DNA of 25,495 nt, from assembly GCA_038061635.1 (NCBI GenBank), contig JBBTYV010000089.1, positions 1-25,495 of the forward strand. Reading direction: 5' to 3'. This stretch comes from Patescibacteria group bacterium. Lineage in GTDB: Bacteria; Patescibacteriota; Saccharimonadia; Saccharimonadales; JAGQMS01. The notes below the pieces were generated by a model. It ran no database searches, was not told the origin of the DNA, and saw only the letters and a list, made by a program, of their open reading frames with translations. This document shows, piece by piece, positions 758-3,455 of this stretch (position 1 is the first letter of the stretch; each line of letters begins with the position of its first letter). The position numbers and the translations under genes are program-made.

Positions 758-1411
758 ATGTATGCCTTGATATTGGTGGTCTTACTTGCGGTTTTGGCTA
801 TTCGTGCCAGTCGAATTAATAGTGAGAGCCCGGATGACATTCCACATCTATTAGGCGACAAGCTTGGTCGACTTTGGAGTATTGCCCATGTTGGCTTAAA
901 AGAAAACAAGTTTTTGCGAGCCGAAAAGGCACTTTTAACAATTCTTCGAATAGATGAGAAGAACACTGCGGCCTATAACCGTTTAGGCATTCTTTATGCT
1001 AAGCAACGAGAGTATAAGGATGCGATTGATTGTTTTGAGATTGCTTCAAGTATAGAACCTAGCGCCTCAAGTCTGCATAACCTCGGTCTGATCTATTACG
1101 AGACTGGCAGTTACGAGAAGGCGATGAGTGCCTTCGAGATGGCTTTGGGGCTCGAGGATAGTCTGGCAGCTAGGCACATTGCCTACGCCAAAGTGCTTGA
1201 AAAGGTCGGTAACGACAAGAAGATGATCGAAGAACTAGAAAGGGCGGCCGAACTTGAACCAAACCGCGAGACATATGGGCTACTTCTTAGAGCTTTTGAA
1301 TCCCGAGACATGCCTGAGGAGGCTAAGGTCATTCAGAAGAAGCTGAATAACGTGATTGTACCGTCAGGTAAGACGCACCGTGTGCTACGTCCAAAACGCG
1401 TCATAATGTAG
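758..1411 (+). CDS. Membrane-anchored tetratricopeptide-repeat protein
   Basis: Hydrophobic N-terminal helix, then TPR-like units (AYNRLGILY...AIDCFEIA; LHNLGLIYY...AMSAFEMAL). Confidence 0.85.
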   Translation: MYALILVVLLAVLAIRASRINSESPDDIPHLLGDKLGRLWSIAHVGLKENKFLRAEKALLTILRIDEKNTAAYNRLGILYAKQREYKDAIDCFEIASSIEPSASSLHNLGLIYYETGSYEKAMSAFEMALGLEDSLAARHIAYAKVLEKVGNDKKMIEELERAAELEPNRETYGLLLRAFESRDMPEEAKVIQKKLNNVIVPSGKTHRVLRPKRVIM

Positions 1412-1500
1412 CCACGCATCCCACAGAATATTGATAAAGACCCCTGTTTTTGATACACTCACACTCGCATTAATCAGAACTTTTACAGTATAATTTAGTT

Positions 1501-1911
1501 ATGCTAACGTGTAAAAACTGCAGCTCAGCCGTCAAACCAAGCGGAAAACTGTATTGCTCCAATCAGTGTCAATTAGAAAATCAATATAGAGCGTATGTTG
1601 CTAGCTGGAAACAAGGAAAATCTAGAGGAGACAGAGGTGTAAGAACAAAAAACATCTCCAAGCACATACGAAAGTATCTTTTCGAGAAGTTTCACAAATC
1701 TTGTTCCTTGTGTGGTTGGAGTGAAGTAAATGCATTTACAGGTAATGTACCCCTAGAGGTAGATCATATTGACGGGAACTCGGAGAATAATCTTGAATCA
1801 AATCTTAGGTTAATTTGCCCAAATTGCCATTCACTTACTAATAGCTTCAGAAACCTAAACAAGGGTAAGGGTAGGGAGTGGAGACGAGCAAGATATATTA
1901 AATCTTTGTAG
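1501..1911 (+). CDS. HNH endonuclease with N-terminal Zn-binding motif
   Basis: CxxC...CxxxC at the N-terminus; CSLCG; LEVDHIDGNSENNLESNLRLICPNCH (HNH core). TATAAT at 1489-1494 lies 6 nt before the ATG. Confidence 0.88.
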   Translation: MLTCKNCSSAVKPSGKLYCSNQCQLENQYRAYVASWKQGKSRGDRGVRTKNISKHIRKYLFEKFHKSCSLCGWSEVNAFTGNVPLEVDHIDGNSENNLESNLRLICPNCHSLTNSFRNLNKGKGREWRRARYIKSL

Positions 1912-1915
1912 GCAT

Positions 1916-1992
1916 GCCGACTTAGCTCAGCTGGTTAGAGCGTCAGTTTTGTAAACTGAATGTCCGGGGTTCGAATCCCCGAGTCGGCTCCA
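1916..1992 (+). tRNA. tRNA-Thr(TGT)
   Basis: Acceptor GCCGACT/AGTCGGC, anticodon arm TCAGT-TTTGTAA-ACTGA, GGTTCGAATCC T-loop, encoded CCA. Confidence 0.97.
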
Positions 1993-2126
1993 TTAAACTT
2001 CGTTCTTCGAACTTCGCTTAACAAGTCAAACTAGTAAAGCTACGGAGGACAAGTATAAAATCAGCGTATTGCGAGATAACTGATTTTCAAGCAACATCGC
2101 TCGTGAGGTGGTGATTGTGAGGAACT

Positions 2127-2158
2127 AAAAAGAACCGTCAGAGATGGCGGTTCTTTTT
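2127..2158. terminator. Bidirectional intrinsic terminator between the convergent tRNAs
   Basis: AAAAAGAACCGTCA-gaga-TGGCGGTTCTTTTT, with a U-tract on both strands. One G-U wobble on + (a C/A mismatch on -). Abuts the tRNA-Tyr CCA end. Confidence 0.85.
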
Positions 2159-2243
2159 GGTGCAGGGTGTAGGATTCGAACCTACGAAGGCGTAAGCCAA
2201 TTGATTTACAGTCAATCGTGTTTGACCACTTCACTAACCCTGC
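2158..2243 (-). tRNA. tRNA-Tyr(GTA)
   Basis: Reverse complement: GCAGGGT/ACCCTGC acceptor, A73, ATTGA-CTGTAAA-TCAAT anticodon arm, long variable arm (GGC-TTAC-GCC), GGTTCGAATCC, CCA. No intron. Confidence 0.97.
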
Positions 2244-2625
2244 ATGCCGTCACATTATAGCGTTGATACTTCGGATGCTCAATCCAAATGTCATTTCTTG
2301 CTTTTACGTCTTTCCAGGGGATGAGGTAAGACTCGCCACGACCAGTGTAAATAAAAAGTAGGTCAAAGGCATCATCCAAGTACTTTTTAGCAGTAGAGTA
2401 ACTCTGATTTCCACCAGTGATACGCAATCCTACGTGGCACTGATCCTTCTTACTAGGGTAAATACCAGCGTACTTAACTTGCACTGTCTGCAATTTGTAA
2501 TTTTTTTCAACTACTAAATCGTAGTTTCGTTTATCTCCTATGGGCAAACACACCTCATACCTATTAATAGTGAAGAAATGTATTGCGTCAGCGACCGCAA
2601 TATCTCCCTTCTCTTTAGTAAGCAT
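2212..2625 (-). CDS. PD-(D/E)XK endonuclease of the group-I-intron-associated I-Ssp6803I type (PDDEXK_5-like), free-standing
   Basis: TKEKGDIA...LPIGDKRNYDLVV...TVQVK...FDLL..Y...YLIP follows the I-Ssp6803I pattern (recalled: TKLKGDIA, PLGDRLSYDLV, KVQVK). Start chosen at ATG 2625 because TGcTATAAT (2632-2640, -) ends 6 nt upstream. Confidence 0.82.
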   Translation of the reverse strand: MLTKEKGDIAVADAIHFFTINRYEVCLPIGDKRNYDLVVEKNYKLQTVQVKYAGIYPSKKDQCHVGLRITGGNQSYSTAKKYLDDAFDLLFIYTGRGESYLIPWKDVKARNDIWIEHPKYQRYNVTACRVSEVVKHD

Positions 2626-2709
2626 GAGCATATTATAGCAGAGTAGTATGCTGTTTGATAAATAACAGAAGATTTTGGTATTATGAGGTTCGGGCTGGCC
2701 AAAGGTTGG

Positions 2710-2731
2710 TCGAATCCTACACCCTACACCA
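2710..2731 (+). repeat. Inverted 22-nt copy of the tRNA-Tyr 3' end (T-loop to CCA)
   Basis: TCGAATCCTACACCCTACACCA versus tRNA-Tyr TCGAATCCTACACCCTGCACCA (reverse complement of 2158-2179): 21 of 22 identical, opposite strand. Confidence 0.9.
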
Positions 2732-2762
2732 AGCATAATCATTTTAGTGATAGTATAAATCC

Positions 2763-3455
2763 ATGAAAAAGGATCAAAAAGGTTTCGAAATACTGGCAGT
2801 GCTTTTATCTATATTAATTTTGGGAGTAGTTATTGGTGCCTGCTGGTATGTTGTAAGAGCAAGGACTAGAGATGCTTCCTCCCAAAGCACAGAGCAGCCG
2901 TCTTCAGAGACCGGTCAAATGACAGATCGGGAAGATTCAGCCTATGTTACTTACGACAAAAATCCAAACTTCACAATTTCATATCCGAAAGGTTGGAATA
3001 TAGAAACAGATAATGTAGATACTAACAACCAGTATATTTTCTTTAGTACAGCTAACTTCACTTCTAACGACAAAGTCTATGAGGATTCCTATGCTATCAG
3101 TCAAGGTTCACGGTTTTATGTTTACATTACAAACGATGGGCTTCCCGCGACGGTCAGTGGGTTGCTAGCCAATTTAAAGGACAGTATTAACAATCTGGCC
3201 AGTCTTTACGCAGCTGAGGGGCTGTACTTTCAAGAACCCAAGATCCTTGAAACTGCTAACGGAGTTAGCTATGTGAGCTTTGTTGGACATTCGTCTTTTA
3301 TAACGCCCATCAATAACTCGTCGAATGCTCTGTTTCTAACTAAAAAACACGGTGTAACACTGGGCTATACCTACCCTGACCGAACAGATACAATAGCAGA
3401 TCCAACTTATGCTAATGAATTCACACACTTTATTGAGTCTTTAAATCTTAAGTAG
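2763..3455 (+). CDS. Membrane-anchored/exported hypothetical protein, possible PsbP-like domain
   Basis: Basic N-terminus 'KKDQKG|FEILAVLL' plus TM helix, S/T/Q-rich linker, 'NFTISYPKGWNIE' motif. Confidence 0.7.
   Translation: MKKDQKGFEILAVLLSILILGVVIGACWYVVRARTRDASSQSTEQPSSETGQMTDREDSAYVTYDKNPNFTISYPKGWNIETDNVDTNNQYIFFSTANFTSNDKVYEDSYAISQGSRFYVYITNDGLPATVSGLLANLKDSINNLASLYAAEGLYFQEPKILETANGVSYVSFVGHSSFITPINNSSNALFLTKKHGVTLGYTYPDRTDTIADPTYANEFTHFIESLNLK

What the first reader, a model, noticed from the sequence alone, without database searches (positions are those of the whole stretch)
2158..2640. Intron-less I-Ssp6803I-like endonuclease whose CDS runs into tRNA-Tyr and contains the tRNA promoter
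Seen: the CDS (2625 to 2212) reads through the first 32 nt of tRNA-Tyr (ACRVSEVVKHD*, stop in the anticodon stem), and its 'RYN' codons supply TATAAT (2254-2259) 10 nt before the tRNA. The tRNA has no intron. Established: I-Ssp6803I is a group I intron-encoded PD-(D/E)XK homing enzyme that targets a cyanobacterial tRNA gene. Inference: a free-standing tRNA-homing element that links itself to the 5' side of the tRNA instead of sitting in an intron. RNase P processing would remove its stop codon, coupling nuclease expression to tRNA maturation.
Basis: partly seen in the sequence, partly recalled or inferred. Interest (0 to 1): 0.72.

Follow-up and report, generated by a model that had tools for sequence, protein, structure and literature searches.

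The report
Free-standing homing nuclease at tRNA-Tyr
A small selfish-type DNA-cutting enzyme gene, whose only studied relative lives inside a tRNA intron, sits on its own directly in front of the single tRNA-Tyr gene of this tiny groundwater bacterium, and comparison with many genomes suggests that it attacks the common version of that tRNA gene while riding next to a resistant version.

Summary
ORF 2625-2212 (-) is a PDDEXK_5 / I-Ssp6803I-type nuclease. Its last 32 nt are the first 32 nt of an intact, intron-less tRNA-Tyr(GTA), and TTGAGC-17-TATAAT lies inside its 3' end.

The tRNA link is not chance. 37 of 41 close homologs from several CPR classes end -38 to +30 nt from tRNA-Tyr on the same strand. 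The element is rare and patchy: 7 of 201 genomes of the order, two of them with in-frame stops, and neither same-genus genome.

New here: nuclease-linked tRNA-Tyr genes essentially never carry the majority anticodon stem CAG...CTG. That is 0 of 7 nuclease-positive genomes against 108 of about 153 others, and 1 off-register case in 45 loci. The cassette also has a conserved CAG-N9-CTG dyad on its own leaderless promoter.

Best reading: a free-standing homing endonuclease that cuts the anticodon-arm DNA of the common allele and is inherited with a resistant allele. The stop-in-tRNA overlap occurs in only about 40% of homologs and looks incidental. The internal promoter is plausible here but not family-wide. 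In this window the cassette is inverted relative to relatives.

The scan noted the same element earlier on other genomes. I found no published description. New variant of a known kind.

The parts
2212..2625 (-). Nuclease CDS, 137 aa. An in-frame ATG at 2631 would give 139 aa. PD-(D/E)XK fold of the I-Ssp6803I type with D36 and Q49-V-K51.
   Evidence: Pfam PF11645 at 58.1 bits. A PDB profile search hits 2OST at E 7.8e-11 with identical D and QVK residues. The AF2 model has pLDDT 84.8, and the Foldseek top four hits are 2OST chains A-D with TM 0.73. Invariant residues are listed.
2158..2243 (-). tRNA-Tyr(GTA), intact and without an intron. It is the only tRNA-Tyr found in this genome. Its anticodon stem is ATTGA/TCAAT, not the majority xCAGA/TCTGx.
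   Evidence: ARAGORN, Rfam 65.5 bits, whole-genome ARAGORN finding 34 tRNAs and one Tyr, and the allele tables.
2212..2243 (-). 32-nt overlap of the CDS 3' end with the tRNA 5' part. The stop codon TGA (2212-2214) is formed by the variant anticodon stem.
   Evidence: Sequence. The overlap class varies among homologs: -6, -10, -31, -32 or -38 nt in 15 loci, and no overlap in 22.
2254..2282 (-). Sigma-70-like site TTGAGC-17-TATAAT inside the CDS (codons I-E-H ... R-Y-N). It is a candidate tRNA-Tyr promoter giving a leader of roughly 3-4 nt.
   Evidence: Promoter scan, 10/12 match. Only 7 of 45 related loci pass the same rule, against 0 of 32 nuclease-free loci. Function is inferred.
2632..2661 (-). 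The nuclease's own promoter, TTATCA-18-(TG)TATAAT. The -10 element ends 6 nt before ATG 2625 and there is no Shine-Dalgarno, so the mRNA is probably leaderless.
   Evidence: Promoter scan, 10/12 match with TG. The same spacing of 6-8 nt between the -10 element and the ATG is seen in most homologous loci.
2638..2654 (-). Conserved dyad ACAG-N9-CTG(C/T) abutting the -10 element; operator-like. It has the same CAG-N9-CTG geometry as the majority tRNA-Tyr anticodon arm.
   Evidence: An exact CAG-N9-CTG lies 20-35 nt before the ATG in 29 of 45 loci, and most others have near variants. In L002 and L009 the core is reverse-complemented. Binding by the nuclease is inferred.
2127..2153 (.). GC-rich hairpin with T runs on both strands. 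It is a terminator shared by the convergent tRNA-Tyr and tRNA-Thr.
   Evidence: Sequence, terminator scan.
2123..2683 (-). Block [promoter - nuclease - tRNA-Tyr - terminator], inverted relative to the tRNA-Thr -> tRNA-Tyr order of relatives. It replaces their native tRNA-Tyr region.
   Evidence: Comparison with G001, G003 and G004. The flanks 2055-2122 and 2684-2731 are collinear with G001; the tRNA-Tyr lies in the opposite orientation.
2684..2731 (+). Stump: a copy of the tRNA-Tyr T-loop-to-acceptor 3' end (core 2710-2731), directly upstream of gene 2763. It predates the nuclease.
   Evidence: The same stump lies 130-150 nt after tRNA-Tyr in nuclease-free G001 and G004 and in G003, and it co-varies with each resident tRNA 3' end.
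1501..1992 (+). Second unit of the same kind: an HNH nuclease gene (1501-1911) ending 4 nt before tRNA-Thr(TGT) (1916-1992).
   Evidence: Pfam HNH. Relatives occur in 34 of 201 genomes of the order, with subclades abutting tRNA-Thr(TGT), tRNA-Thr(CGT) or tRNA-Leu(TAA). The gene is absent from that site in G001, G003 and G004.

Best explanation
This is a roughly 430-bp single-gene selfish cassette: dyad operator, extended -10 promoter, leaderless PD-(D/E)XK nuclease gene. It encodes a free-standing homing endonuclease of the I-Ssp6803I family. Shown: family and fold; no intron; a fixed position immediately 5' of tRNA-Tyr(GTA) across CPR classes; sporadic presence, with decaying copies; and exclusive linkage to tRNA-Tyr alleles that lack the majority anticodon stem C28-A29-G30 / C40-T41-G42. 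Inferred: the enzyme, probably a symmetric oligomer like I-Ssp6803I, recognises the 17-bp anticodon stem-loop DNA of the common tRNA-Tyr allele and cuts it. Repair from a nuclease-bearing copy then brings in the cassette together with the adjacent resistant stem variant; this is 'intronless homing' with co-conversion. The conserved tRNA-Thr(TGT) upstream and tRNA-Tyr downstream serve as homology arms. The CAG-N9-CTG dyad on its own promoter may be a non-cleavable look-alike of the target that allows autorepression. Because the cassette ends at the tRNA 5' end, the reading frame often runs into the tRNA, by 32 nt here, as a by-product. In this locus the CDS 3' end also offers a good -10/-35 pair that can keep the only tRNA-Tyr expressed. 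That matters here, because the block is inverted and cannot be co-transcribed with tRNA-Thr.
For: Family and fold: PF11645 at 58.1 bits; 2OST at E 7.8e-11 with identical D36 and Q49-V-K51; Foldseek TM 0.73 to 2OST.

No group I intron in 1400-3000. Distant relatives of 30-38% identity do sit on RF00028 introns.

Position: 37 of 41 close loci lie -38 to +30 nt from tRNA-Tyr. The other four are contig ends or broken copies still in place.

Patchiness: 3 of 60 relatives and neither same-genus genome; 7 of 201 in the order, two with an in-frame stop; 2 of 400 in the phylum sample.

Empty versus filled sites: G001 and G004 have Thr-spacer-hairpin-Tyr. G003 has the cassette between the hairpin and the tRNA 5' end.

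Allele exclusion: the CAG..CTG stem is present in 108 of the 159 order genomes that match a general tRNA-Tyr pattern, but in 0 of the 7 nuclease-positive ones. For the six that match the general pattern, the hypergeometric p is about 9e-4. In the phylum sample it is 64 of 90. Among 45 nuclease-linked loci only one has CAG, and there it is out of register, as CCAGT. Within families f1, f4 and f208 the contrast goes the same way. The ATTGA stem occurs in 8 of 45 linked loci but in only 1 of about 146 unlinked genomes. D-loop T16 is likewise enriched, at 8 of 18 against 1 of 30.

Operator.

Divergence is decoupled from host distance. The nuclease is 65% identical to the Berkelbacteria copy, while BipA is 55% and L1 is 42%. 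Within the order it is 52-66%, against 64-79% for those proteins.
Against: No cleavage, binding or transcript data exist; no RNA run holds the locus.

The nuclease tree largely clusters by host type and its backbone is unresolved. Vertical descent with many losses is therefore not excluded, and the roughly 65% identity plateau could be saturation.

The allele association is correlational. Loci are phylogenetically non-independent, and the association fits co-conversion, immunity or both.

The central 9 nt of the operator match the anticodon loop poorly: 2 of 9 in register, 5 of 8 with a 1-nt shift. CAG-N9-CTG arms are also found in the neighbouring tRNA-Thr(TGT), so the look-alike may be coincidence.

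The inverted orientation in this window cannot arise from simple homing.
Confidence: 0.72

Rival explanations
1. The stop-in-tRNA overlap is a selected expression switch. The nuclease and tRNA are co-transcribed. RNase P cleavage at the tRNA 5' end removes the stop codon, so nuclease output is tied to tRNA maturation.
For: The geometry is real. The same tail, RVSEVVKHD, is kept in the six closest homologs. 15 of 37 homologs stop inside the tRNA.
Against: 22 of 37 homologs stop before the tRNA, and the overlap length varies from 6 to 38 nt. The tail is conserved only as far as the tRNA itself is. It is predicted to be disordered. An internal promoter could make the tRNA independent of the mRNA.
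Confidence: 0.15
2. A vertically inherited, domesticated protein: a regulator or maintenance factor of the tRNA-Tyr locus that has been lost in most lineages, not a mobile element.
For: The nuclease tree groups by host tRNA type: 4 label changes, the minimum possible, never matched in 200 label shuffles. Identity between classes is very high at 60-68%. The operator suggests DNA-binding regulation.
Against: It is present in only 1-4% of genomes and absent from both same-genus genomes. Copies with in-frame stops exist. Catalytic residues are invariant. Divergence does not scale with host distance. Linked tRNA alleles are atypical.
Confidence: 0.1
3. An allele-specific exclusion nuclease, with restriction-like behaviour. 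It destroys incoming DNA (taken-up DNA or phage) that carries the common tRNA-Tyr allele and protects the resident variant. Spread of the gene is secondary.
For: The same data as for homing: linkage to a variant allele, and structural neighbours after 2OST that are restriction enzymes.
Against: The fixed insertion point next to the target, the single-gene cassette with no modification partner, and the decaying copies all fit the homing life cycle better.
Confidence: 0.12
4. Cargo or a scar of an integrase-type island that targets the tRNA-Tyr 3' end. The 22-nt copy at 2710-2731 would then be an att repeat.
For: A copy of the tRNA 3' end flanks the block.
Against: The same stump exists in nuclease-free G001 and G004, in direct orientation. 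There is no integrase. In G003 the insert is the nuclease cassette alone, on the 5' side of the tRNA.
Confidence: 0.04

Closest known systems
I-Ssp6803I (PDB 2OST; Pfam PF11645), the group I intron endonuclease of the Synechocystis tRNA-fMet gene
   Same: Same family and fold, the same D...QxK catalytic motif, a predicted symmetric oligomer, and a tRNA gene as its home. The target is probably the 17-bp anticodon stem-loop DNA.
   Different: It is not in an intron: the gene lies 5' of an intact tRNA. The tRNA is Tyr, not fMet. About 26-30% identity. It is shorter, with a different C-terminus (the Pfam match stops at profile position 108 of 138). It carries its own promoter/operator. The host is CPR, not cyanobacteria.
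Intronless homing by free-standing phage endonucleases, above all T4 SegB (GIY-YIG) in the T4 tRNA gene cluster (PMC2330249); also SegF, MobE and F-CphI
   Same: A free-standing nuclease gene between conserved genes, with sporadic presence among relatives. The target lies in a conserved tRNA-gene motif; SegB recognises the T-psi-C stem-loop motif. Flanking markers are expected to be co-converted.
   Different: The setting is a bacterial chromosome, not a phage. The fold is PD-(D/E)XK. It is specific for one tRNA species and apparently for one allele of its anticodon stem. Homing has not been shown by crosses.
I-TevI autorepression (my own knowledge: Edgell et al. 2004; not checked in the held library)
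   Same: A homing endonuclease that binds an operator overlapping its own promoter. The operator resembles its homing site but is not cut.
   Different: Here this is only inferred, from a conserved dyad with the arms and spacing of the target. The centre of the dyad differs, and no binding data exist.
LAGLIDADG endonucleases in rRNA-gene insertions of CPR bacteria (PMC11270868)
   Same: Homing-type nucleases that are common in CPR genomes and target conserved RNA genes.
   Different: Those sit inside rRNA genes as insertion sequences or introns. This one stays outside the RNA gene.

Membership tests
PDDEXK_5 / I-Ssp6803I-like PD-(D/E)XK endonucleases | Match to the family profile above the curated threshold | tested here: met
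   PF11645 at 58.1 bits against a cut-off of 26.1, residues 1-108 of the 137-aa protein. A single copy in the genome.
PDDEXK_5 / I-Ssp6803I-like PD-(D/E)XK endonucleases | Restriction-endonuclease-like fold with the D...(Q/E)xK catalytic residues | tested here: met
   AF2 model with pLDDT 84.8. Foldseek ranks 2OST chains A-D at 1-4, with E 4e-8 and TM 0.73. D36, Q49, V50 and K51 are invariant and aligned to the same residues of 2OST.
PDDEXK_5 / I-Ssp6803I-like PD-(D/E)XK endonucleases | Homo-oligomer that reads a pseudo-symmetric site | tested here: inconclusive
   The four-copy model scores ipSAE 0.88 against a best control of 0.05. The runs agree in at least 95% of contacts, and the partner pLDDT is at least 82. 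A like complex (2OST) is solved, so the pass may be from memory.
Intron-encoded homing endonucleases | The gene lies inside a self-splicing intron of its target gene | tested here: not met
   No Rfam group I intron in 1400-3000 at E<=1, and the tRNA is uninterrupted. Distant relatives do overlap RF00028.
Free-standing homing endonucleases (intronless homing) | A nuclease gene at one conserved intergenic site, present or absent among close relatives | tested here: met
   37 of 41 loci abut tRNA-Tyr. Present in 7 of 201 genomes of the order and absent from same-genus genomes. Empty and filled sites were compared.
Free-standing homing endonucleases (intronless homing) | The target site is in nuclease-free alleles near the insertion point, and the nuclease-bearing allele is resistant | tested here: inconclusive
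   Indirect: the majority CAG..CTG anticodon stem is found in 0 of 7 nuclease-positive genomes, and in 1 (off-register) of 45 nuclease-linked loci, against about 70% of other genomes. No cleavage assay was done.
Free-standing homing endonucleases (intronless homing) | Biased inheritance with co-conversion of flanking markers in crosses | not testable with these tools
   Only hints: the ATTGA stem and D-loop T16 travel with the nuclease across families.
Integrase-type tRNA-targeting islands | An integrase gene, and direct repeats of the tRNA 3' end bounding the element | tested here: not met
   The insert is a single gene without an integrase. The 3'-end copy is also present in nuclease-free relatives.

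The most novel reading that the evidence does not exclude
CPR bacteria may harbour a whole guild of free-standing nucleases that act as allele-specific 'gene drives' on single-copy tRNA genes. The members seen here are PD-(D/E)XK clades at tRNA-Tyr, tRNA-Ser(TGA) and tRNA-Thr, and HNH clades at tRNA-Thr(TGT), tRNA-Thr(CGT) and tRNA-Leu(TAA). Each would park at the tRNA 5' flank, use the tRNA genes as homology arms, cut the common stem variant and carry a resistant one. In that way they would drive compensatory turnover of tRNA stems across the phylum. The tRNA-Tyr clade would in addition regulate itself through a target look-alike in its leaderless promoter.
Probability: 0.35. Interest if true: 0.8.

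Novelty: new variant of a known kind. Interest (0 to 1): 0.62.

Why it matters
The PD-(D/E)XK homing endonuclease family is known from a single studied enzyme, which lives inside a tRNA intron. This element shows that the family can persist without an intron by parking beside its tRNA target.

It would also be a case of intronless homing on bacterial chromosomes rather than in phages.

The allele exclusion gives a concrete, cheap prediction: the 17-bp anticodon arm with the CAG/CTG stem is cut, and the ATTGA variant is not. If that holds, selfish nucleases are a force on tRNA stem evolution in reduced genomes that have only one copy of each tRNA. The enzymes would also be compact (about 125 aa) sequence-specific nucleases with natural target/resistant pairs.

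Tried and rejected
1. RNA evidence. No RNA run holds the locus; the holders are groundwater DNA metagenomes. Laying contigs of four runs gave only short pieces. One contig (X4 record 11) has the nuclease 3' part plus tRNA-Tyr followed by a different GC-rich flank after CCA. It may be a chimeric contig that passes through the conserved tRNA, so I draw no conclusion from it.

2. Inversion by recombination between the tRNA 3' end and the inverted 22-nt copy. This does not reproduce the arrangement of relatives, and the copy predates the nuclease. How the inversion arose stays unexplained.

3. DNA-level selection for the internal promoter. The I-E and Y codons give TTGA and TA at a spacing of 17, but codon choice (ATT, TAT) is what AT-rich genomes use anyway. 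Only 7 of 45 loci pass a strict rule.

4. D-arm and T-arm as look-alikes of the operator. No convincing match was found (inspection).

5. Rfam search for the structured region and stump downstream of tRNA-Tyr in G001 and G003. Nothing reached the gathering score.

6. The primary I-Ssp6803I papers (PMC3008403) are not held. What I say about the target of I-Ssp6803I rests on a review reference list and a superfamily table.

7. Cross-class transfer from the tree alone. The backbone is unresolved, so it cannot be shown that way.

Full report
**Observation**

The window comes from a 705-kb, 116-contig genome of a Saccharimonadia-type (CPR/Patescibacteria) bacterium. It is found in groundwater metagenomes.

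ARAGORN and Rfam place an intact, intron-less tRNA-Tyr(GTA) at 2158-2243 on the minus strand. The CDS and tRNA therefore share 32 nt.

Homolog N-termini (M-x-TKEKGD) and the promoter set the start at 2625, or possibly 2631, rather than at the longest-ORF start 2742. TATAAT at 2254-2259 is preceded by TTGAGC at 17 nt, a 10/12 match.

**What the protein is**

- It matches Pfam PF11645 (PDDEXK_5) at 58.1 bits against a cut-off of 26.1.
- A profile of 23 homologs finds one PDB sequence, I-Ssp6803I (2OST), at E 7.8e-11. The conserved D and Q-V-K residues are aligned and identical.
- An AlphaFold2 model has mean pLDDT 84.8. Its best structural matches are the four chains of 2OST (TM 0.73, E 4e-8). 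Restriction enzymes and Holliday-junction resolvases follow far behind.
- The last eight residues, which are encoded by the tRNA, have pLDDT below 50.
- A four-copy model scores ipSAE 0.88 against a best control of 0.05. The runs agree in at least 95% of contacts and the partner pLDDT is at least 82. Because the 2OST tetramer is solved, this pass may reflect likeness only.
- No group I intron is detectable around the gene. By contrast, relatives at 30-38% identity from Bacteroidota, Chloroflexota and others overlap Rfam group I introns.

**Position in other genomes**

The close homologs (45-87% identity) come from Saccharibacteria, Parcubacteria/Paceibacteria, Berkelbacteria and Microgenomates. 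In 41 close loci from species-representative genomes:

- 37 end between -38 and +30 nt from the 5' end of tRNA-Tyr(GTA) on the same strand.
- Two are cut by contig ends.
- Two are broken copies that still lie in front of tRNA-Tyr.
- Fifteen run into the tRNA, by 6, 10, 31, 32 or 38 nt. Twenty-two stop before it.

So the abutment is the conserved feature, not the overlap. The tail RVSEVVKHD is shared only by the six nearest homologs, whose tRNA is the same.

**Distribution**

- The tRNA-Tyr-type gene is present in 3 of 60 nearest relatives and in neither of the two same-genus genomes.
- It is present in 7 of 201 genomes of the order. Two of these carry an in-frame stop.
- It is present in 2 of 400 genomes sampled across the phylum.

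**Empty and filled sites**

- Same-genus G001 and same-family G004 have tRNA-Thr(TGT), a spacer, a hairpin and then tRNA-Tyr, all in one direction.
- G003 has the nuclease cassette inserted between that hairpin and the tRNA 5' end.
- In 28 of 30 further nuclease-free genomes tRNA-Tyr follows tRNA-Thr(TGT); in 27 of these it is on the same strand, at 1-446 nt.
- In several filled sites the cassette fills the Thr-Tyr spacer almost exactly.

The unit is thus about 430 bp with one gene, flanked by two conserved tRNA genes that could serve as homology arms.

**This window is rearranged**

The flanks 2055-2122 and 2684-2731 are collinear with G001. The block 2123-2683 (promoter, nuclease, tRNA-Tyr, terminator) lies in the opposite orientation, so tRNA-Tyr converges on tRNA-Thr.

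That stump also follows tRNA-Tyr in nuclease-free G001 and G004 and in G003, and it co-varies with each resident tRNA 3' end. It is therefore not a product of this nuclease. How the inversion arose is unexplained.

**Allele association**

In the order sample, 159 genomes match a general tRNA-Tyr pattern. Of these, 108 carry the anticodon arm CAGACTGTAAATCTG.

None of the seven nuclease-positive genomes does. For the six that match the general pattern, the hypergeometric probability is about 9e-4.

Across the phylum sample the CAG/CTG stem is in 64 of 90 matched genomes. One of these rows, G212, is an unpublished genome; without it the count is 63 of 89.

Among 45 nuclease-linked loci the stems are ATTGA (8), AGAGA (6), ATAGA (5), GTAGA (4) and others. 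Only one locus has CAG, and there the closing pair differs, giving CCAGT.

The contrast holds inside families:

- f1: G000 and G003 against G001 and G004.
- f4: G008 against five others.
- f208: G582 against G467 and G560.

The ATTGA stem is found in only 1 of about 146 unlinked genomes (my count). D-loop T16 is enriched too, at 8 of 18 Saccharibacteria-type linked loci against 1 of 30 unlinked, which points to hitch-hiking of the tRNA 5' part.

These loci are not phylogenetically independent, so the large-sample figures overstate significance. The direction, however, is uniform.

**Own promoter and dyad**

Upstream of almost every homolog lies a conserved string: AACAG, then a 9-nt core (CACTATACT in the consensus), then CTG(T/C)TATAAT, followed 6-8 nt later by the ATG. 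There is no ribosome-binding site. This amounts to an extended -10 promoter for a leaderless mRNA, overlapped by a dyad.

An exact CAG-N9-CTG occurs there in 29 of 45 loci. In two loci the asymmetric core is reverse-complemented, which suits a symmetric binding protein. In the Microgenomates copies the dyad is a perfect palindrome.

Its arms and spacing equal those of the majority anticodon arm, which spans 17 bp. [quoted passage not shown]

I therefore propose, as inference, that the dyad is a non-cleaved look-alike of the target used for autorepression, as described for I-TevI (my own knowledge). Two points count against this. The central nine bases match poorly. The neighbouring tRNA-Thr(TGT) arm is also CAG-N9-CTG.

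**Mobility**

The nuclease tree clusters largely by host tRNA type and has an unresolved, star-like backbone. Frequent cross-class transfer is therefore not shown.

Divergence is nonetheless decoupled from host distance. Percent identity to the window's protein:

| Genome | Kinship | Nuclease | BipA | L1 |
|---|---|---|---|---|
| G327 (Berkelbacteria) | same phylum | 65 | 55 | 42 |
| G003 | same family | 66 | 79 | 70 |
| G008 | same order | 65 | 74 | 65 |
| G034 | same order | 58 | 72-76 (two pieces) | 67 |
| G555 | same order | 52 | 72 | 64 |

Together with the patchiness and the decaying copies, this fits the gain-decay-loss cycle of homing endonuclease genes better than it fits a housekeeping role.

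The internal sigma-70-like site is real, and it is useful in this inverted locus, where tRNA-Tyr is the genome's only copy. By the same rule only 7 of 45 related loci have one, against 0 of 32 empty sites. It is plausible here but not a property of the family.

If the genes are co-transcribed, RNase P processing would indeed leave a non-stop mRNA. The variable and frequently absent overlap argues that this is a side effect, not a device.

**Wider pattern**

The HNH gene at 1501-1911, which ends 4 nt before tRNA-Thr(TGT), belongs to a family present in 34 of 201 genomes of the order. Its subclades abut tRNA-Thr(TGT), tRNA-Thr(CGT) or tRNA-Leu(TAA).

A second PDDEXK_5 clade (35-40% identity) sits beside tRNA-Ser(TGA), and one copy abuts tRNA-Thr(TGT). 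Parking of nuclease genes at tRNA 5' flanks thus seems general in these bacteria.

**Novelty**

Full-text searches found free-standing phage endonucleases, including T4 SegB in a tRNA cluster (PMC2330249), and LAGLIDADG enzymes in CPR rRNA genes (PMC11270868). They found nothing on tRNA-flank nucleases in CPR or on free-standing I-Ssp6803I relatives.

Earlier notes of this scan describe the same element on other genomes, including the anticodon-target and promoter look-alike idea. I reached these readings before reading those notes, but they are not independent evidence.

Verdict: a new variant of a known kind, with a sharp and testable prediction.

Noticed in passing
window 1501-1992 (+); loci L151-L174: The HNH nuclease gene ends 4 nt before tRNA-Thr(TGT). 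Its relatives, found in 34 of 201 genomes of the order, split into subclades that each abut one tRNA species. These are Thr(TGT) at -38 to +7 nt, Thr(CGT) at -27 to +48 and Leu(TAA) at -92 to +56. The gene is absent from this site in G001, G003 and G004.
   Followed up: partly
window 2684-2731 (+); L094:1040-1226, L095:1340-1500, L090:1290-1502: A stump that repeats the T-loop-to-CCA end of tRNA-Tyr lies 130-150 nt after tRNA-Tyr in this family, with hairpins in between. It occurs with or without the nuclease. Its last ~22 nt co-vary with the resident tRNA (the G003 version matches G003's own acceptor). There is no Rfam match. It could be an old att-type scar or an unknown tRNA-like RNA end.
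   Followed up: partly
window 2123-2683: The nuclease-tRNA-Tyr-terminator block is inverted compared with G001, G003 and G004, and it replaces their native tRNA-Tyr region. No repeat explains the breakpoints at 2122/2123 and 2683/2684.
   Followed up: partly
loci L083-L087, L101-L105, L143-L149, L108: A second PDDEXK_5 clade (35-40% identity) in Patescibacteria lies beside tRNA-Ser(TGA). It sits either directly upstream on the same strand (-31, -15 nt) or divergent from it at 57-120 nt. One copy (L108) abuts tRNA-Thr(TGT) at 0 nt.
   Followed up: partly
loci L043, L045, L048, L053, L061, L068, L072: More distant relatives (30-38% identity) from Bacteroidota, Chloroflexota, Eremiobacterota and some CPR overlap Rfam group I introns at their 3' ends, often with a tRNA-Met(CAT) gene 180-450 nt downstream. 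This is the classical intron-borne form of the family.
   Followed up: partly
window 2157-2446, run X4 (and X3) contigs: A metagenome contig has a near-identical nuclease 3' part plus tRNA-Tyr (2 differences in 290 nt), but a different, GC-rich sequence right after the CCA end. This is either a second genomic context or an assembly chimera through the conserved tRNA.
   Followed up: no
window 1916-1992 (+): The anticodon arm of tRNA-Thr(TGT) also has CAG-N9-CTG arms (CAG TTTTGTAAA CTG). Any nuclease that reads the tRNA-Tyr arm must therefore also read loop bases.
   Followed up: no
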